From NCBI GenBank assembly GCA_947571655.1, contig CANOYR010000003.1, positions 3,408 to 67,407 of the forward strand: a stretch of DNA of 64,000 nt. Reading direction: 5' to 3'. This stretch comes from an uncultured Bacillales bacterium (GTDB taxonomy: Bacteria; Bacillota_I; Bacilli_A; RF39; UBA660). Shown one piece after another: positions 46,470 through 53,238 of this stretch. The notes below the pieces were generated by a model. It saw nothing but the letters and a program-made list of their open reading frames with translations. It was not told the DNA's origin and did no database searches. The number at the start of each line of letters is the position of its first letter. Within the stretch, counting starts at the first letter, position 1. A program made the translations under genes and the position numbers.

Positions 46470-47831
46470 ATGATAATAAAACAAAAAGGATGTCATGATA
46501 TTTATGGATTAGAAGCAAAAAAATGGAATTATGTATCTCAAGTAATTGATGCTGTTTGTGAAAGATATCATTATGATTTTATTCGTACTCCAATTTTTGA
46601 AGCAAGTGAACTATTTCATCGTAGTATTGGGGAAGAAACAGATGTCGTTCGTAAAGAGATGTATGATTTTAAGGATAAGGGAAATCGTGACATTACTCTA
46701 AGACCAGAGGGAACAGCAGGAGTAATCCGAAGCTATATTGAAAATAAAATGTATGGTGATTCTGTACAACCTGTGAAGCTATATTATAATGGAACGATGT
46801 ATCGATATGAGCGTCCACAATCTGGAAGAGATCGGGAACTTACTCAATTTGGAGTTGAAGTTTTAGGAAGTGATGATCCAATGATTGATGCGGAGGTTAT
46901 TTCTCTTGCTGTTAATATTTATAAAATTTTGGGGTTAAAAGGAATTAAAGTAAATATTAATTCTTTGGGAGATCAAGAGTCGAGAGATAATTATCGAAAG
47001 GTCTTGATTGATTACTTTACTCCATATGTGAATGAATTGTGTGAAGATTGTAAGATCCGCTTAGAAAAAAATCCACTTCGTATCTTAGATTGTAAGATAG
47101 ATTGTCAATTAGAAATTATGAAGAATGCTCCTATTATAGTAGATTATTTAAATGAAGAGAGTAAGAAGCGATTTTTGGCTGTTCAAAAGTATTTAGATTT
47201 ATTAGATATTGAATATGAAGTTAATCCATCGATTGTCCGAGGATTAGATTATTATAATCATACGGTATTTGAAATTGAGGCAGATATTGAAGATTTTGGT
47301 AGTCAAAATGTGTTAGGTGGTGGTGGAAGGTATAATCATTTGGTATCGCAACTTGGAGGTCCAGAAACTCCTGGAATTGGGTTTGCGATGGGAATTGGAC
47401 GCCTTATTCTTGCTTTAGAAAAAGAAGAAATTCAATTGCCAATAGAGGAAGGAATTGATGTATTCGTAATGTATGTATCTGATACAGAGAAAGAATATGC
47501 GGTTACTCTAGTTCAAGAACTTCGTATGAATGGATTTAAAGCAGAAACAGAATATATGAATCGAGGTTTAAAAGGACAGTTTAAGCAAGCAGACCGTTTG
47601 AAAAGTAAATTTTTAATTTTGTTAAATGATGAAGAATTAAAGGAAAATCAAATAAAAATAAAAAATAATCAGACTAAGGAAGAGAATTTTATAGAGCTTG
47701 ATTATATTCTATATTACTTAGATGAGCAACTTTCCTCTTTTGAAGAGAGTGATTGTAATTGTGGACATCATCATGAAGAGGGACATCATTGTCATTGCCA
47801 ACATAAAGATGATGGAGAAATTAATTTTTAA
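46470..47831 (+). CDS. hisS: Histidine--tRNA ligase with His/Cys-rich C-terminal tail
   Basis: Class II aaRS motifs and anticodon-binding domain. The additional C-terminal tail reads ...ESDCNCGHHHEEGHHCHCQHKDDGEINF. Confidence 0.9.
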   Translation: MIIKQKGCHDIYGLEAKKWNYVSQVIDAVCERYHYDFIRTPIFEASELFHRSIGEETDVVRKEMYDFKDKGNRDITLRPEGTAGVIRSYIENKMYGDSVQPVKLYYNGTMYRYERPQSGRDRELTQFGVEVLGSDDPMIDAEVISLAVNIYKILGLKGIKVNINSLGDQESRDNYRKVLIDYFTPYVNELCEDCKIRLEKNPLRILDCKIDCQLEIMKNAPIIVDYLNEESKKRFLAVQKYLDLLDIEYEVNPSIVRGLDYYNHTVFEIEADIEDFGSQNVLGGGGRYNHLVSQLGGPETPGIGFAMGIGRLILALEKEEIQLPIEEGIDVFVMYVSDTEKEYAVTLVQELRMNGFKAETEYMNRGLKGQFKQADRLKSKFLILLNDEELKENQIKIKNNQTKEENFIELDYILYYLDEQLSSFEESDCNCGHHHEEGHHCHCQHKDDGEINF

Positions 47832-47848: not shown

Positions 47849-49600
47849 ATGAAGAAATATAACAATGTACAGTTTAATATAAAAAATGTAGGAGAATCTG
47901 TAGTTTTAGAAGGTTGGGTAGCGAAAAAAAGAAATCTTGGGGGATTAATCTTTTTGGATTTAAGGGATCGTTCAGGGATTATACAGTTGGTGGTACGACC
48001 AGGGCAAAAAGATTATGAATTAGCAAGTGGTTTGAAAACGGAATCAGTAATTAGAGCGAAGGGAAAAATTCTAGAAAGAGAAAGTAAAAATTTAAAAATT
48101 CCAACAGGAGAGATTGAGGTAATTGTCGATGAATTAGAAATTTTTAGTATCGCACATGATCTTCCTTTTGAAATTAGTGATGATACAACGGCATTAGAAG
48201 ATACTAGGCTTAAATATCGTTATTTGGATTTACGAAGAACAAACTTAAAAAAGAATTTAATTGCACGAAGTCAATTAATGCATATTATTCGGAATTTCTT
48301 TTATGAAGAGGGCTTTATAGAAGTAGAAACTCCTATTCTTTGTAAATCTACACCAGAAGGAGCTAGGGATTATCTGGTTCCATCGCGAATAAATCATGGT
48401 AGTTTTTATGCACTTCCTCAGTCTCCTCAAATTTTTAAACAATTATTAATGATTGGTGGAATGGAAAAATACTTTCAAATTGCAAAGTGTTTTCGTGATG
48501 AAGATTTAAGATCAGATCGTCAACCAGAGTTTACACAAGTTGATTTGGAAATGAGTTTTGTAGAGGAGGAAGATGTAATTTCTACAACAGAAAGATTGCT
48601 TGCTAAAGTGTTTAAAGAAATGAAGGGAATTCAATTAACTCTTCCACTTTCTAGAATGAAATATGATGATGCAATTAGAGATTATGGTACTGATCAACCA
48701 GATTTACGTTATGATATGAAAATTCAAAGCTTAAATGAATTATTTAAGAAAACAGAATTTTTAGTTTTCCAAAATATTTTAAAATCTGGAGGAGAAATTG
48801 GATGTATTCTTGTAAAGAATAGTGCAGATAAGTATTCTAGAAAAGAAATTGACAAGTTAGCAGATTTTATGAAGACATATCAGGTAAGTGGAATTTCTTG
48901 GTTAAAGTATATTGATTCTGATTTTTCTGGAAGTATTCGCAAGGTGTTATCGGATGAAGAGTTGAGTGGATTAAAGAATCAATTAAATATTGAAGAAAAT
49001 GATATGCTTTTTATTGTTGCTGATAAGTATGGAATAACAAAAACTTCTCTCGGTGCTTTACGAATTCGATTGGCTCATGAATTGGGTCTTGTGAAAAGAG
49101 GAGATTATCAATTTACGTGGATTGTTGATTTTCCATCTTTTGAGTATAGTGAAGAAGAAAGTCGGTATGTTGCTTGTCATCATCCATTTACAGCACCAAA
49201 AGATACCGATATTGATAAATTGTTAAATGATAAATCAAATTGTTATTCTAAGGCTTATGATATTGTCATTAATGGTTATGAAGCTGGAGGAGGAAGTATC
49301 CGTATTCATCAGGCAGAGGTTCAAAAAAAGATGTTTGAGGCTTTGGGTTTTACTTTAGAGCAAGCAAAGGAAAAATTTGGCTTTTTTCTAGAAGCATTTG
49401 ATTATGGTACTCCTCCCCATGGTGGTCTTGCTTTAGGATTGGATCGATTAACAATGCTTTTAGTAGAAACAGAAAATATTCGAGATGTAATTGCTTTTCC
49501 AAAGACTACTAGTGCTTCTTGCTTGATGAGTGAGTGCCCAAATAGGGTGGATCAAAAGCAATTAGATGAGTTGGAAATATCAGTAGTAGAAAAAGACTAA
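47849..49600 (+). CDS. aspS: Aspartate--tRNA ligase
   Basis: N-terminal OB anticodon-binding domain, class II motifs (FRDEDLR, GGGSIRIH, GLDRL) and a GAD insertion. Confidence 0.9.
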   Translation: MKKYNNVQFNIKNVGESVVLEGWVAKKRNLGGLIFLDLRDRSGIIQLVVRPGQKDYELASGLKTESVIRAKGKILERESKNLKIPTGEIEVIVDELEIFSIAHDLPFEISDDTTALEDTRLKYRYLDLRRTNLKKNLIARSQLMHIIRNFFYEEGFIEVETPILCKSTPEGARDYLVPSRINHGSFYALPQSPQIFKQLLMIGGMEKYFQIAKCFRDEDLRSDRQPEFTQVDLEMSFVEEEDVISTTERLLAKVFKEMKGIQLTLPLSRMKYDDAIRDYGTDQPDLRYDMKIQSLNELFKKTEFLVFQNILKSGGEIGCILVKNSADKYSRKEIDKLADFMKTYQVSGISWLKYIDSDFSGSIRKVLSDEELSGLKNQLNIEENDMLFIVADKYGITKTSLGALRIRLAHELGLVKRGDYQFTWIVDFPSFEYSEEESRYVACHHPFTAPKDTDIDKLLNDKSNCYSKAYDIVINGYEAGGGSIRIHQAEVQKKMFEALGFTLEQAKEKFGFFLEAFDYGTPPHGGLALGLDRLTMLLVETENIRDVIAFPKTTSASCLMSECPNRVDQKQLDELEISVVEKD

Positions 49601-49632
49601 AGAAAGACTAAAGGTCTTTTTTTTTATTAATG

Positions 49633-49650
49633 TATTATTTAAAGTTTTTC
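49633..49650. repeat. Left copy of 18-bp direct repeat ATTATTTAAAGTTTTTCT flanking the IS (putative target-site duplication)
   Basis: Identical 18-mer at 51229-51246. Divergence begins immediately beyond the repeat on the inner side. Confidence 0.55.
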
Positions 49651-51228
49651 TGTCAATTTTTTTTAAAAATGTCAGTAAAATCGTTTTGAGAAAATGTCAG
49701 TTTGAAGTATAGTCATAGTAAGATCAAAAGATCAATTTTTGATGTGAGAAGATTATACTTCTTTTCTTTGTTAGTCAAGAATCAAGATAAACGACTGAAG
49801 TCGTCCTTGACTAACAACCATGATTTAGACAATAGTACATATTACTGTGAGAAGTAATAGGAGGTAACCCTTTTCTCCAAGGGGGATTTATAGATTTATG
49901 AGTTTTAGAAGAGTTAATATTGGAACTAGATTTCGTTATTTTGATATTTCTTTTTAACGAGGTATTAAAGTCTTTAACGGTATGTAAGTCATACCAAGTA
50001 TCATTAAATAAAATATGTTCAGTACCATCAAGAAATGTATATACTCTAACAGATTTGCTAGTTGGGAGATATACTTTCTCATTATTTTTTAATATTACAT
50101 GATAGACTTTATTGTATTTTAAGTAGGAATTATGAAATACCTTATGCTCACTCCAAACAGCTAATTGTTTGTTATAATCAAAATCATTGTCTAGACATAT
50201 GAAATGATTTTTGGTATTATCAATAGGAAGAGCGAATCTAGCGTTGTATTTGGGGATAAAGACATCGTTTAAGTATTGATTTGCCTCTTCAATTGTATGT
50301 ATGTGTTTCTTTTTGAGCTCTTTATATAAACGATCTTGAAAAGTTCTCCATAGTCTTTCAATCCTGCCTTTAGCACGTGGATTGATAGAAATAATATCTG
50401 TTCCAATATGTTCTAACATATTAGCGAAACGGGTATTTTTTATTTGTTTACCTTGAAGTTCGTCTTCTAAGGTTAACTCCTTTTTAGGAGATTTAAAAAC
50501 GGTTCTATAATCGGTATATAGATATTCAGGAATGCCATAGTTTTGAATTGTTTGTTTCATAATCATTTGATATCCGAAAATAGTTTCTTCTTTATCAAAG
50601 AAACAAGAGGTTACAGTACCAGTGGAATCATCGATTCCACCATGAAGATAGTAATATTTATCATCACCATAGAACCATTGGTGTTTCGATGCATCAACTT
50701 GAATTAATTCTCCAGCATATTCTTTTCTTTCTCTAGGAGGATAAGATTTTTTATGTTTTTTATATTTATGAGGAGATTCAATACCATTAGAAGTAAGAAG
50801 GTTATAAATAAAAGAATCAGAAACTATAATTTTGTGATAATCTTCTAAAATGTCATTAAAATGGTAGAAATTCCAACCTTCATATTCTTTATGATACAGA
50901 TCTATAATTTTATTTTTTAGTTCTTCTGAATATCCACGATGAGTGGATCTATTTCTATTTTTATGAGAAATACTTTTAATGCCATCTTTTAAGTAAGCCT
51001 TTTTCTTTCTATATATTTGTCTTTTAGATAGACCAGTTAATCTTGATACATCTGATATATTAATTTCGTTGGCAAGTAATTTTATTAAAATATTATTAAT
51101 TCTTTCTTCTTTCATATTTAATGTAATCCTTTCATTCATTTTGATTGCTCCCTTCCTAAGGAGCATATTATACCACTTACTGCCATTTTTAAAAAATGAT
51201 ATATACTGACATTATCACAAAATGATTA
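49651..51228 (-). mobile_element. Insertion sequence (~1.58 kb), DDE transposase, ISNCY/IS1202-like
   Basis: A single transposase ORF. The imperfect terminal inverted repeats start TGTCAATTTTTTTTAAAAATGTCAGTA (left) and TGTAATCATTTTGTGATAATGTCAGTA (reverse complement of the right end). An 18-bp direct repeat flanks it. It sits between the aspS terminator and the tRNA promoter. Confidence 0.5.
49811..51139 (-). CDS. DDE (rve integrase-core) transposase
   Basis: N-terminal HTH (ISDVSRLTGLSKRQIYR). DDE core: IQVDASKH...HGGIDDSTG...LYTDYRTVF...E. The start is MNERITL, after the RBS ggaagggag. Confidence 0.7.
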   Translation of the reverse strand: MNERITLNMKEERINNILIKLLANEINISDVSRLTGLSKRQIYRKKKAYLKDGIKSISHKNRNRSTHRGYSEELKNKIIDLYHKEYEGWNFYHFNDILEDYHKIIVSDSFIYNLLTSNGIESPHKYKKHKKSYPPRERKEYAGELIQVDASKHQWFYGDDKYYYLHGGIDDSTGTVTSCFFDKEETIFGYQMIMKQTIQNYGIPEYLYTDYRTVFKSPKKELTLEDELQGKQIKNTRFANMLEHIGTDIISINPRAKGRIERLWRTFQDRLYKELKKKHIHTIEEANQYLNDVFIPKYNARFALPIDNTKNHFICLDNDFDYNKQLAVWSEHKVFHNSYLKYNKVYHVILKNNEKVYLPTSKSVRVYTFLDGTEHILFNDTWYDLHTVKDFNTSLKRNIKITKSSSNINSSKTHKSINPPWRKGLPPITSHSNMYYCLNHGC

Positions 51229-51246
51229 CAATTATTTAAAGTTTTT
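51229..51246. repeat. Right copy of the 18-bp direct repeat flanking the IS
   Basis: ATTATTTAAAGTTTTTCT is identical to 49633-49650. Confidence 0.55.
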
Positions 51247-51325
51247 CTTGCATTTTTATTCATTTTGTAGTAGAATAATGCATACCTTGTATAAGAATCG
51301 GAAAGTAGCAAAGGGGGTTACATCA

Positions 51326-51745
51326 ATGAATTCTTCTTATATATTTGAATACCAAAATGAAAACGAGTTTAAGGTAAAGGAGAGAACTTTACGAAAGTAT
51401 AATATGATTGCATATAAGGAACTTGTCTTTAAAGATTATCCTGCACTAAGAAATGGGAAATTTTTAGGTAATTTAGTCTCTGAAAATAAAGAGGAAAAGA
51501 TTAAAAGTTATGAATTAGAATTGCCAAGTGATGATTCGTTTAAAAAAGTTCATGGAAATGTATATTTGCATTATACAGTTTATGAAATTGGCAAAGTAGT
51601 ATTATTAACAAATATTAGTCCAGATGAAATCTTGGAAGAAGCTCATCGTACTGAGCTTCCTACTTATAAGGGAGTATTGATTTCTAAAAGCAATCCTCAA
51701 AAAGATATTTTTAAGGTGAATTTGTTAAATATGTTGAATAAATAA
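51326..51745 (+). CDS. Hypothetical protein (orphan ORF between IS and tRNA promoter)
   Basis: RBS aaagggggt precedes ATG 51326. The 139-aa product has no recognised motif. Confidence 0.3.
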   Translation: MNSSYIFEYQNENEFKVKERTLRKYNMIAYKELVFKDYPALRNGKFLGNLVSENKEEKIKSYELELPSDDSFKKVHGNVYLHYTVYEIGKVVLLTNISPDEILEEAHRTELPTYKGVLISKSNPQKDIFKVNLLNMLNK

Positions 51746-51891: not shown

Positions 51892-51976
51892 GCGGGTATG
51901 GCGGAATTGGCAGACGCACTAGACTTAGGATCTAGCGCCGCAAGGCTTGCAGGTTCAACTCCTGTTACCCGCACCA
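51892..51976 (+). tRNA. tRNA-Leu (anticodon TAG), class II with long variable arm
   Basis: GCGGGTATGGCGGAATTGGCAGACGC...anticodon loop CTTAGGA...variable arm...GGTTCAACTCCTGTTACCCGCACCA. Confidence 0.85.
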
Positions 51977-51988
51977 ATCGACATATAG

Positions 51989-52010
51989 CCCTTGATTTTC
52001 AAGGGTTTTT
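51989..52010 (+). terminator. Intrinsic terminator after the tRNA pair
   Basis: CCCTTG-atttt-CAAGGG followed by TTTTT. It overlaps the integrase stop codon. Confidence 0.5.
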
Positions 52011-53238
52011 ATATGCCCAAAATTATCTCTGGTCTTGTTTTGGTCTTGTTACTATTCTTTATTTCATCAATATAACTAATACTATCGAAATAATCTTTAG
52101 GAATCAAATGAATATATGTTTTCATTGTTTCATCAACGCTGGAGTGACGTAATCGCTTTGAAACTACCGTAATTGGCAGTTTTAATGATATTAACCAAGA
52201 GGCAAAAGAATGGCGAAAATCGTGTAATCTAAAGTTTCCTTGAGTAATATTTGTTTTCTTCAAATATTTATTTACAGCATTACAGAGTGAATTCTCAGAT
52301 ATTGGTTCATCTTTACCAAATATAAACCATGTTTCTTTAAAGTTAGGATCTTTCATACAAATTAACTTCCATTGGTGTATTTTCTCATTTAATTGTTTAT
52401 CTAGAGGCATTACATCTTTAGAAGATGGTGTTTTTGGATCTTTTAAATATCTTTTTTGTCCTTTCTTTTTTTTACTCATTGTATGATTTACAGTTAGAGT
52501 AGAATTTTCATAAGAATAATCTATCCATCTAAAGGCCATTAATTCTCCCGGTCTAGGCCCATTTGAGTAAAACAAATCAAAGATAGTATGATATTTATCA
52601 TCTTTTTTCGTTACTTCTAATAGTTTTAAATACTGTTCATAGGAAATTATATTGTATTTTTTTTCTTTTCTTTGATTAGCAATCATCTTTTTAGTGCCAA
52701 ACTTTCCGACTTTTCTAATTGGATTAGTCACAATTAACTCATTACTAACCGCAAATTCATACATCGCATTTACATAAGAATGTATTGCGTTTAAAAAAGA
52801 AAGTGAGTATTTTTTTTCTTTTTTTCCTCGAATGTATGTGGAATCTATTTTTTTGTCTTGCCATTGCTTATATTTGTCGCTAGTGTATGATATTATTTTT
52901 TTTACTCCTTCAGTTGGTAAAAAATGTTGTTCTAATCTGTTTTCAATAATCATTAAGCTATCATCATCTATTTTATGTTTTTTTGATTCTATGTACATCT
53001 TGAAAAGTTCATTATTGTTTATTTTTCTTACACCATTTGTAGATAATTGATTTTTATTATTGCTTAGTTCTTTAATAGCGTTTTCATATCCTTCTTTACC
53101 TAACCACATATTTCCATGATTGTCTAATCTTTTTGTAATCTGTTTTCCATTTACATAGGGTCTAATATAATATCTCGTTTGTCCATTTACTTTTTCTGGA
53201 TATTCATAAATAGGTATTGTTTTCTTTGATTTTGGCAT
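52009..53238 (-). CDS. int: Tyrosine site-specific integrase
   Basis: C-terminal catalytic domain with R...HDFRHSFAS...RLRHSSVDETMKTYIHL (R-H-R-Y). Confidence 0.85.
   Translation of the reverse strand: MPKSKKTIPIYEYPEKVNGQTRYYIRPYVNGKQITKRLDNHGNMWLGKEGYENAIKELSNNKNQLSTNGVRKINNNELFKMYIESKKHKIDDDSLMIIENRLEQHFLPTEGVKKIISYTSDKYKQWQDKKIDSTYIRGKKEKKYSLSFLNAIHSYVNAMYEFAVSNELIVTNPIRKVGKFGTKKMIANQRKEKKYNIISYEQYLKLLEVTKKDDKYHTIFDLFYSNGPRPGELMAFRWIDYSYENSTLTVNHTMSKKKKGQKRYLKDPKTPSSKDVMPLDKQLNEKIHQWKLICMKDPNFKETWFIFGKDEPISENSLCNAVNKYLKKTNITQGNFRLHDFRHSFASWLISLKLPITVVSKRLRHSSVDETMKTYIHLIPKDYFDSISYIDEIKNSNKTKTRPEIILGI

What the first reader, a model, noticed from the sequence alone, without database searches (positions are those of the whole stretch)
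49633..51246. IS insertion with unusually long (18-bp) direct repeats and TIRs sharing an AATGTCAGTA core
ATTATTTAAAGTTTTTCT occurs at both flanks, about 1.6 kb apart. Inside, the ends read TGTCAATTTTTTTTAAAAATGTCAGTA and the reverse complement TGTAATCATTTTGTGATAATGTCAGTA. A single 442-aa DDE transposase and long target duplications fit the IS1202 group of ISNCY. The element sits in the aspS-tRNA intergenic region, so the insertion looks recent.
Basis: partly seen in the sequence, partly recalled or inferred. Interest (0 to 1): 0.5.

Follow-up and report, generated by a model that had tools for sequence, protein, structure and literature searches.

The report
Promoter-seeking insertion sequence beside aspS
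This is an intact 1.58-kb jumping gene of the known IS1202 family, and it and dozens of its relatives sit at one fixed distance upstream of a gene's promoter, which suggests these elements home in on promoters, something I could not find reported.

Summary
An exact 18-nt repeat (49634-49651 and 51231-51248) brackets a 1580-bp element (49651-51230). The element has TGT...ACA tips, imperfect inverted repeats with an AATGTCAGTA core, and one 442-aa DDE transposase gene.

It belongs to the IS1202 family, ISTde1 subgroup. The true target duplication is 17 bp. The 18th T is the first base of the element on the left and the first base of a -35 box on the right. Near-identical copies elsewhere carry different 16-17-bp duplications. 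Related lineages have the same intergenic region without the element. In this lineage every sampled contig carries it, so "recent" is only relative.

The new point concerns target choice. The duplication next to the transposase-proximal end directly abuts the -35 hexamer of an outward-facing sigma-70-type promoter. Here that is TTGCAT-17-TAGAAT, driving a 139-aa ORF. The same geometry holds in 46 of 49 independent insertions, against about 8 expected from shuffles. It also holds in most rows I transcribed from a preprint's curated table of ISTde1-type and IS1202-type elements. The two family papers I could read report no target for these subgroups.

The recognition mechanism is inferred. I favour RNA polymerase holoenzyme bound at the promoter.

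The parts
49603..49625 (+). Terminator-like hairpin and T-run after aspS (aspS stop codon ends at 49600). This is the upstream neighbour of the insertion site.
   Evidence: Read from the sequence: AAAGAC-TAAAG-GTCTTT followed by TTTTTT. The scan tool did not list it because the stem has fewer than 3 G-C pairs.
49634..49650 (.). Target-site duplication, left copy (ATTATTTAAAGTTTTTC, 17 bp).
   Evidence: Tip assignment.
49651..51230 (-). The insertion sequence, 1580 bp. IS1202 family, ISTde1 subgroup.
   Evidence: TGT/ACA tips, inverted repeats and duplication. Transposase family assignment.
49651..49677 (+). IRR, the end distal to the transposase gene: TGTCAATTTTTTTTAAAAATGTCAGTA. Its tip is an outward-facing TTGACA on the minus strand.
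   Evidence: The scan tool lists TTGACA (49656-49651), a 16-nt spacer, then TACATT.
49684..49701 (+). Second, subterminal copy of the AAAATGTCAGT motif at the IRR end. Presumed extra transposase-binding site.
   Evidence: Direct-repeat family D13 (49659-49676 and 49684-49701, 83%). Harmer et al. (PMC10132070) describe such extra sites for the family.
49721..49745 (-). Hairpin 2 of the 3' non-coding region (ACATCAAAAG-loop-CTTTTGATGT in relatives). Weaker in this copy.
   Evidence: Alignment A2 and RNAalifold: 10 pairs, 3 with compensatory changes.
49770..49815 (-). Conserved nested stem-loop that overlaps the transposase stop codon. Outer stem GTTAGTCAAGGA/TTCTTGACTAAC, inner stem GACGAC/GTCGTT. 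Function unknown.
   Evidence: 12 outer pairs, 4 with compensatory changes.: -27.5 kcal/mol, z = -3.3. No Rfam match.
49811..51139 (-). Transposase gene, 442 aa. Catalytic residues D149, D210, E261. Additional D170/D171. Q268 at E+7.
   Evidence: The 442-aa start has an RBS (GGGAG, 51152-51148). The alternative 451-aa ATG lies upstream of the likely transcription start.
51167..51175 (-). Extended -10 box TGGTATAAT of the transposase promoter, overlapping the inner binding-site repeat.
   Evidence: Read from the sequence. The same box is conserved in relatives.
51177..51200 (-). Second, subterminal copy of the binding motif at the IRL end (reverse complement AAAATGGCAGTAA).
   Evidence: Families D6 and I3.
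51204..51230 (-). IRL, the end proximal to the transposase gene: TGTAATCATTTTGTGATAATGTCAGTA.
51231..51247 (.). Target-site duplication, right copy.
51248..51276 (+). Target promoter: -35 TTGCAT (51248-51253), 17-nt spacer, -10 TAGAAT (51271-51276). It fires away from the element.
   Evidence: Read from the sequence. Matches the consensus at 8 of 12 positions and is not listed by the scan tool. The block is conserved in orthologous uninterrupted sites L118 and L123-L125.
51326..51745 (+). Downstream 139-aa ORF of unknown function, with RBS AAAGGGGG at 51310-51317. This is the gene served by the target promoter.
   Evidence: Nearly all homologues are 139 aa. No Pfam or NCBIfam match.

Best explanation
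The feature is an intact insertion sequence of the IS1202 family, ISTde1 subgroup. It is 1580 bp long (49651-51230).

Anatomy. Its single DDE transposase (442 aa) most likely binds the AATGTCAGT motifs, which occur twice at each end. The enzyme would then join the two TGT...ACA tips to target DNA at positions staggered by 17 bp. Repair of the stagger gives the 17-bp duplication.

Target choice is not random. The tip distal to the transposase gene (IRR) is joined immediately upstream of the -35 hexamer of a sigma-70/sigma-A-type promoter. The proximal tip (IRL) is joined 16-17 bp further upstream. The element therefore ends up divergent from the promoter. The promoter keeps 16-17 bp of its own upstream DNA, and the neighbouring genes stay whole.

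In the window the promoter is TTGCAT-17-TAGAAT, in front of a 139-aa ORF, just downstream of the aspS terminator.

Shown from sequence:
- the boundaries and the duplication;
- the family assignment;
- other copies with other duplications;
- uninterrupted sites in related lineages;
- the promoter geometry across many independent insertions.

Inferred:
- the chemistry;
- which motif the transposase binds;
- how the promoter is sensed. I favour recognition of RNA polymerase holoenzyme sitting on the promoter. This is by analogy with the dif/XerC-targeting ISAba32 subgroup, where the duplication also spans from IRL to the bound site.
For: Identity.
- NF033594 scores 330.9 bits against a cut-off of 250. 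The same model scores ISKpn21 at 496 bits and an Acinetobacter 441-aa transposase at 470 bits.
- The transposase is 25-34% identical over more than 80% of its length to plasmid genes annotated ISKpn21-like and ISEsa1 (IS1202-like).
- D149, D170, D210, E261 and Q268 (E+7) are invariant. [quoted passage not shown] The preprint 10.1101/2022.12.17.520857 describes this indel for the ISTde1 subgroup.
- The element has TGT tips and a doubled binding motif at each end, as described in PMC10132070.

The duplication is real.
- Copies 98% identical at the protein level lie at five or more other sites with different 16-17-bp duplications. A copy 90% identical has a 16-bp duplication.
- Relatives at 33-78% identity have 16-18-bp duplications.
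- Orthologous aspS-ORF139 spacers without the element exist in L118 and L123-L125.

Promoter geometry.
- In 11 of 11 complete elements the duplication abuts a -35-like hexamer, followed at about 17 nt by a -10-like hexamer.
- In 46 of 49 independent IRL flanks the best promoter match has its -35 starting 15-18 nt from the tip. Shuffles give a mean of 8.1 and a maximum of 17. The opposite strand gives 6.
- At the aligned positions T, T and G of the -35 occur in 46, 43 and 42 of 46 sites. The -10 reads T45 A46 T32 A42 A35 T46, and a TG extension is enriched.
- Among sites with a TTG-type -35, 30 of 30 have a TAnnnT -10. Only 17% of comparable non-coding hexamers in the window do.
- I transcribed rows with a long duplication from the parts of the preprint's curated table that I read. 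Of 36 ISTde1-sheet rows, 20 score at least 8.5 of 12 at the duplication edge (shuffle mean 0.46). Of 32 IS1202-sheet rows, 25 do (shuffle mean 1.06). IS1202 itself fits at 3 of 3 sites.
Against: - The window's own promoter matches the consensus at only 8 of 12 positions. The scan tool does not call it, and that tool finds no excess of promoter-like sites in this AT-rich region (16 found against 12.8 expected).
- All promoters are predictions from sequence. I have no expression data.
- Three of the 49 sites do not fit. About a third of the transcribed ISTde1 rows also do not fit. Four of those rows have the promoter at the other end, and ISVbsp4 shares a different motif.
- The structure model was too poor to test the TnsB-like fold (mean pLDDT 58.8, catalytic domain below 50). 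A profile search of PDB sequences found nothing.
- Nothing tested here bears directly on RNA polymerase as the landmark.
Confidence: 0.85

Rival explanations
1. The geometry is the same, but the transposase reads DNA directly. It would recognise the -35-like hexamer, perhaps because TTGACA is the reverse complement of its own IRR tip TGTCAA. The -10 boxes would then be there only because insertions elsewhere are lost by selection.
For: The IRR tip is TGTCAA in nearly all long-duplication members. T, T and G of the -35 are almost invariant. Insertion next to end-like sequences is known for other IS, such as IS911 (from my own knowledge).
Against: All 30 TTG-type sites have a TAnnnT -10 at 16-18 nt, against 17% of similar non-coding hexamers in the window. 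Selection against intragenic insertions cannot explain that difference. The spacer distribution (16 nt: 8 sites; 17 nt: 35; 18 nt: 3) and the TG extension are the signature of sigma-factor recognition. The background comes from a single genome window.
Confidence: 0.25
2. The 18-nt repeat is a chance AT-rich repeat or part of the element, not a target duplication.
For: About 1.6 identical 17-mer pairs are expected per window from composition alone, and another 18-mer is repeated in the window.
Against: The repeat abuts both tips exactly. Other copies of the same element have different repeats of the same length. Related lineages have one copy of the promoter-proximal part and no element.
Confidence: 0.01
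3. The element belongs to a different DDE family with short duplications (IS481, IS3, IS630), and the long repeat is incidental.
For: Weaker matches to IS481 (87.9 bits), IS630, IS3 and IS21 models.
Against: All of these fall below their curated cut-offs (224, 100, 160 and 160 bits). NF033594 passes its cut-off. Q at E+7 replaces the usual K/R, and the extra DD is present. Relatives have 16-17-bp duplications throughout.
Confidence: 0.02
4. The promoter association is real but arises after insertion. The element would spread randomly and be kept only where it is harmless, or the assemblies would be biased.
For: All data are natural, surviving insertions from metagenomes and genomes. No de novo events were observed.
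Against: Survival bias can favour intergenic DNA. It cannot fix the distance to the -35 at 16-17 bp, make the duplication end exactly at the hexamer, or fix the orientation. One locus looks like a tandem second insertion at the same promoter, with 17 nt between the IRL of one copy and the IRR of the next (L102).
Confidence: 0.04

Closest known systems
ISTde1 subgroup of the IS1202 family (for example ISFco1, ISHahy13, ISAchy1)
   Same: Size of about 1.5-1.6 kb with one transposase. TGT at both tips. Inverted repeats of the form TGT-N10-TGATAATGTCA and TGTCAAT...GAAAATGTCA. Duplications of 15-17 bp. [quoted passage not shown] The metagenome relative L094 (38% identity over the aligned 324 residues) has an IRL identical to that of ISFco1 and an IRR one base different over the 25 nt compared.
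   Different: It is a new sequence. The nearest proteins from other elements are about 77% identical, and the nearest named one, an NCBI 'ISNCY family transposase' of Staphylococcus nepalensis, is 74%. I could not build a tree with ISTde1 itself. The papers I read report no target for this subgroup. Here a promoter target is evident.
IS1202 proper (Streptococcus pneumoniae) and its subgroup
   Same: Same family and similar inverted repeats with a TGTCAA IRR tip. In the transcribed table rows its duplication also abuts a -35 hexamer (25 of 32 rows; IS1202 at 3 of 3 sites).
   Different: Its duplication is 27-28 bp, about one helical turn longer. Its IRL tip is less conserved. Its subgroup has a roughly 30-aa insertion before the catalytic domain, which is absent here.
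ISAba32 / ISAjo2 subgroup (dif and pdif site hunters)
   Same: Same transposase family. Insertion is oriented, with IRL towards a protein-bound landmark, and the duplication fills the gap between IRL and the landmark.
   Different: The landmark is the XerC arm of a Xer site and the duplication is 5-6 bp. Here the landmark is a promoter -35 box and the duplication is 17 bp.
Tn7 (TnsB transposase with separate target selectors)
   Same: TGT/ACA tips and several transposase sites per end. Harmer et al. model the family transposase on TnsB. Both use safe-site targeting.
   Different: There are no TnsA, TnsC or TnsD partners, only a single gene. The TnsB-like fold could not be tested here.
IS1630 of Mycoplasma (IS30 family), and Ty3 of yeast. 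Both are from my own knowledge and were not checked here.
   Same: IS1630 makes unusually long duplications at a transcription signal (terminators). Ty3 integrates at a fixed distance from a transcription start by binding the initiation machinery.
   Different: The enzymes are unrelated. The signal here is a bacterial sigma-70-type promoter.

Membership tests
IS1202 family | Transposase matches the family model and named members | tested here: met
   NF033594 scores 330.9 bits (cut-off 250). The model scores ISKpn21 at 496 bits and an Acinetobacter 441-aa transposase at 470 bits. tblastn gives 25-34% identity over more than 80% of the length to ISKpn21-like and ISEsa1 genes.
IS1202 family | [quoted passage not shown] | tested here: met
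   D149, D170/D171, D210, E261 and Q268 are invariant in 27 relatives. All except D171 are also conserved against ISKpn21 and the Acinetobacter protein.
IS1202 family | 5'-TGT ... ACA-3' tips and imperfect inverted repeats with a conserved block near position 20 | tested here: met
   AATGTCAGTA lies at positions 18-27 of both ends.
IS1202 family | Additional internal transposase-binding repeat near each end | tested here: met
   Repeat families D13 and D6. Binding itself is inferred.
IS1202 family | TnsB/MuA-like fold of the transposase | tested here: inconclusive
   The AlphaFold model has mean pLDDT 58.8, with the catalytic domain below 50. A PDB profile search found no hit.
ISTde1 subgroup | Target duplication of 15-17 bp | tested here: met
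   17 bp here. Other copies and relatives mostly have 16-17 bp, with one of 18.
ISTde1 subgroup | [quoted passage not shown] | tested here: met
   A 7-residue insertion relative to ISKpn21 and the Acinetobacter protein.
ISTde1 subgroup | Clusters with ISTde1 in the transposase tree | not testable with these tools
   No ISTde1 sequence could be fetched. Indirect support: the inverted repeats resemble those of members listed on the curated ISTde1 sheet.
IS1202 subgroup | Duplication of 27-28 bp and an insertion of about 30 residues before the catalytic domain | tested here: not met
   The duplication is 17 bp. No such insertion appears in alignment A3.
ISAba32 subgroup | Duplication of 5-6 bp, inserted 5 bp from a XerC/D site | tested here: not met
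   The duplication is 17 bp, and the flank is a promoter rather than a Xer site.

The most novel reading that the evidence does not exclude
The long-duplication branches of the IS1202 family (ISTde1-type at 16-17 bp, IS1202-type at 27-28 bp) are promoter hunters. They insert in one orientation with the duplication ending exactly at the -35 hexamer of sigma-70-type promoters, probably by docking on promoter-bound RNA polymerase. The three duplication classes of the family (5-6, 16-17, 27-28 bp) would be the same reaction spaced by whole helical turns from a protein landmark. This would be a previously unreported target specificity, and the first bacterial IS group known to me that uses the transcription-initiation site itself as its address.
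Probability: 0.55. Interest if true: 0.85.

Novelty: new member of a known kind. Interest (0 to 1): 0.62.

Why it matters
As an element it is ordinary: one more member of a described IS family. The pattern it led to matters more.

- It would explain where two subgroups insert, for which the family papers found no target.
- It would explain why their duplications are so long. The duplication preserves the promoter's own upstream DNA, so the insertion is nearly harmless.
- It would give a bacterial counterpart to Ty3-like targeting of transcription machinery.
- It points to a testable transposase-RNA polymerase contact.
- A single-protein system that inserts at a fixed distance from promoters could become a tool for promoter tagging or safe-site insertion.
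- For annotation, a 16-17-bp or 27-28-bp repeat ending at TTGnnn becomes a marker for both the element and the promoter.

Tried and rejected
- No other copy lies in the window. blastn and tblastn find only the element itself.
- No empty site was found among contigs with identical AspS or the identical downstream ORF. All carry the element. Several of those contigs end 24 nt inside the element, which points to a multi-copy repeat.
- L017 and L018 first looked like copies lacking the repeat. They turned out to be assemblies that join two copies. The odd left flank of L017 is the duplication of another site (L133).
- Rfam has nothing inside the element.
- The structure prediction was unusable for the catalytic domain because the alignment was shallow, so I ran no fold search. 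A PDB profile search was empty.
- I considered insertion next to terminators, because the aspS terminator and one in L017 lie nearby. I dropped the idea once the constant feature proved to be on the other side.
- I checked whether the outward TTGACA tip plus the duplication makes a hybrid promoter with a -10 in the far flank. It does at 10 of 12 positions here. By eye it does not in the right flanks of the curated table.
- No second copy of the tRNA-Leu 3' end was found in the window that could mark the far end of the integrase island.
- The journal version of the Siguier et al. paper is not held, so I could not check whether it mentions promoters.
Full report
**What is in the sequence**

The window is 29% G+C. 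ATTATTTAAAGTTTTTCT occurs twice, at 49634-49651 and 51231-51248, and nowhere else. Between the copies the sequence starts TGTCAATTTTTTTTAAAAATGTCAGTA and ends, in reverse complement, TGTAATCATTTTGTGATAATGTCAGTA. Each end holds a second copy of the AAAATG(T/G)CAGT motif 25-26 nt further in (families D13, D6, I2, I3).

One long ORF lies on the minus strand. The 442-aa start (ATG at 51139) follows a GGGAG ribosome-binding site. An extended -10 box, TGGTATAAT (51175-51167), lies upstream of it. The alternative 451-aa ATG would lie upstream of the likely transcription start.

On the left is aspS (47849-49600) with a short terminator-like hairpin and T-run. On the right come a small ORF, tRNA-Met and tRNA-Leu.

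**Where the element ends**

Contigs L017 and L018 and several truncated contigs carry near-identical copies with other left flanks. All continue with TGTCAA. In every relative the base before GTAAT is T and the base after GAC is A. The tips are therefore TGT and ACA, the element is 49651-51230 (1580 bp), and the duplication is 17 bp.

An 18-nt repeat is not rare in itself in this DNA. About 1.6 identical 17-mer pairs are expected, and one other repeated 18-mer is present. Its exact contact with both tips is what counts.

**Which family**

- Pfam sees only weak helix-turn-helix matches.
- NCBIfam NF033594 (transpos_ISNCY_2) scores 330.9 bits against a cut-off of 250. IS481, IS630, IS3 and IS21 models score below their cut-offs.
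- I checked what NF033594 stands for. It scores the annotated ISKpn21 transposase at 496 bits and a 441-aa Acinetobacter ISNCY transposase at 470 bits. ISKpn21 is named as an ISAba32-subgroup member in the preprint 10.1101/2022.12.17.520857.
- tblastn against plasmids gives 25-34% identity over more than 80% of the protein to genes annotated "ISNCY-like element ISKpn21" and "IS1202-like element ISEsa1".
- In 27 relatives D149, D170, D171, D210, E261 and Q268 are invariant or nearly so. Q268 lies seven residues after E261. Both family papers give this as the family signature in place of K/R.
[quoted passage not shown] It has no large insertion before the catalytic domain. The preprint gives a 5-10-residue indel at that place as the mark of the ISTde1 subgroup, together with 15-17-bp duplications and TGT at both ends.

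All tested features fit the ISTde1 subgroup. The features of the IS1202 subgroup (27-28 bp) and the ISAba32 subgroup (5-6 bp) are not met. The TnsB-like fold proposed by Harmer et al. (PMC10132070) could not be tested, because the model was poor and the PDB sequence search was empty.

**Is the repeat a target duplication?**

They do not.

- Copies whose transposase is 98% identical lie at eight or more different sites.
- L131 has a perfect 16-bp duplication, and L133 a perfect 17-bp one.
- Three more duplications can be paired across contigs that assemblers joined through the repeat.
- A copy 90% identical has a 16-bp duplication.
- Relatives at 33-78% identity from genomes and metagenomes have 16-18 bp.

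**Is the insertion recent?**

Every contig that encodes the identical AspS (nine places shown) or the identical downstream ORF (ten places) carries the element at this site. So it is not visibly polymorphic in the sampled population.

Homologues of the downstream ORF are almost all 139 aa, which puts its true start at 51326 behind AAAGGGGG. In lineages where that ORF is 83-86% identical, aspS is followed directly by it, with a spacer of 141-180 bp and no element. In the alignment the block TTTTTC-TTGCAT-17 nt-TAGAAT-AATGCATACCTTGTAT is conserved.

The insertion is therefore derived and the duplication is still perfect. But "recent" holds only on the scale of species divergence.

**The fixed position next to a promoter**

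I lined up the flanks in the orientation of the transposase gene. The DNA outside IRL always read: reverse-complemented -10 box, about 17 nt, reverse-complemented -35 box, the duplication, then TGT.

In all 11 complete elements the duplication copy next to IRL is followed directly by a -35-like hexamer and, about 17 nt on, by a -10-like hexamer. This includes three elements in G+C-rich flanks.

I then located IRL by its own motif only (TGT-N10-..ATAATGTCA), removed duplicate sites, and scored the flanks.

| Measure | Observed | Control |
|---|---|---|
| Best sigma-70-type match with -35 starting 15-18 nt from the tip (mode 17) | 46 of 49 sites | 1000 shuffles: mean 8.1, maximum 17; opposite strand: 6 |
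| Score of at least 9 of 12 at that offset (earlier 42-site set) | 33 of 42 sites | 0.5 expected |

At the aligned positions the -35 reads T46 T43 G42 A27 C25 A23 of 46. The -10 reads T45 A46 T32 A42 A35 T46, and a TG extension is enriched. Spacers are 16 nt (8 sites), 17 nt (35) and 18 nt (3).

Seven further sites of the 98%-identical element all obey the rule.

Two of the three exceptions are informative:
- L032 has a recombined flank.
- L102 shows 17 nt and then the IRR of a second copy. That is what a second insertion at the same promoter would give.

**An independent data set**

Supplementary Table 1 of the preprint lists flanks and duplications for curated members. I read parts 7-11 of its 12 parts and transcribed the rows with a long duplication by hand.

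| Sheet | Rows | Score of at least 8.5 of 12 within 2 nt of the duplication edge, IRL side | Shuffle mean | Shuffle maximum |
|---|---|---|---|---|
| ISTde1 (duplication of 15 bp or more) | 36 | 20 | 0.46 | 3 |
| IS1202 | 32 | 25 | 1.06 | 5 |

On the ISTde1 sheet, four more rows have the promoter at the edge on the other side, and three ISVbsp4 rows share another motif. On the IS1202 sheet, the fitting rows include all three S. pneumoniae IS1202 sites.

Both long-duplication subgroups thus share the promoter-proximal boundary and differ in the distal one. With the 5-6-bp subgroup, the three classes are spaced by about 11 bp. I read this as whole helical turns; that is an inference.

The text of the preprint uses "promoter" only for hybrid and junction promoters. 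[quoted passage not shown] Further searches found nothing on this. The journal version is not held.

**How the promoter might be sensed**

The signature in the flanks is that of sigma-factor recognition: -35, a 17 ± 1 spacer, -10, and a TG extension. A transposase that read only the -35 should also land next to promoterless TTG hexamers.

In the window's non-coding DNA only 26 of 153 such hexamers (17%) have a TAnnnT -10 at the right distance. All 30 insertion sites with a TTG-type -35 do. Loss of intragenic insertions by selection cannot produce that difference.

In the dif-targeting subgroup the duplication likewise spans from IRL to the XerC arm, and contact with bound XerC has been proposed. 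I therefore favour docking on promoter-bound holoenzyme. The main rival is direct reading of TTGACA, which is the reverse complement of the IRR tip. Neither was tested here.

**Weak points**

- The window's own promoter is only 8 of 12. The scan tool does not list it, and promoter-like matches are not enriched in this AT-rich stretch. For this one site the case rests on conservation in the uninterrupted orthologues, the ribosome-binding site, and the family-wide rule.
- All promoters are predicted, not measured.
- The table rows were copied by hand.

**Other features inside the element**

Between the stop codon and IRR all close relatives keep a nested stem-loop that contains the stop codon. 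Its outer stem has 12 pairs, four with compensatory changes. By eye, the inner stem also varies in a compensatory way. Then comes a TAnAAT box and a second hairpin with three compensatory pairs. The window copy folds at -27.5 kcal/mol, z = -3.3. Rfam has no match. The function is unknown. It could be a terminator or stabiliser of the transposase mRNA, or a small RNA.

**Verdict**

The element is a new member of a known family. The interpretation needs three corrections: the duplication is 17 bp, the element lies upstream of a promoter, and it is not demonstrably recent. The promoter-hunting behaviour is well supported by sequence statistics and, as far as I could check, unreported.

Noticed in passing
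window 49721-49815 (minus strand); same region in L022-L032, L038, L039: A conserved structured non-coding region lies between the transposase stop codon and IRR. It has a nested stem-loop containing the stop codon, a TAnAAT box, and a second hairpin. Compensatory changes occur in 7 of 22 predicted pairs. There is no Rfam match and the function is unknown.
   Followed up: partly
window 51892-53238 and onwards to 64000: A tyrosine integrase gene (52009-53238, minus strand, Phage_integrase E = 3.9e-20) starts 33 bp after tRNA-Leu. It is followed by divergent small ORFs, which looks like a prophage or island integrated at the tRNA. No second copy of the tRNA 3' end lies in the window. Relatives L119 and L120 have other genes there.
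   Followed up: partly
window 49629-49656 (minus strand): The IRR tip supplies an outward TTGACA. Together with the duplication as a 16-nt spacer and TACATT in the flank, it gives a 10-of-12 promoter match pointing back into the 3' end of aspS. By eye, the right flanks in the curated table do not show this as a general feature.
   Followed up: partly
L102:1-97: Seventeen nucleotides outside the IRL of one copy lies the IRR of a second copy. This is as expected for two successive insertions at the same promoter, so there may be no target immunity. The contig is too short to see the rest.
   Followed up: no
Supplementary Table 1 of 10.1101/2022.12.17.520857 (rows ISSmsp1, ISUba1, ISTna1, ISPlba6; ISVbsp4): Four curated ISTde1-sheet elements have the promoter at the duplication edge on the IRR side. 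ISPlba6 has one on both sides. The three ISVbsp4 sites share a GGGGCA motif instead of a promoter. These may be clades with a different orientation or target.
   Followed up: no
window 46470-47831: The histidyl-tRNA synthetase ends in a His/Cys-rich tail (CNCGHHHEEGHHCHCQH...) that reads like a metal-binding extension.
   Followed up: no
window 51277-51300; L118, L123-L125: The 5' leader of the 139-aa ORF (AATGCATACCTTGTAT...) is as conserved as the promoter itself across lineages whose ORF is only 83-86% identical. This hints at a regulatory leader.
   Followed up: no
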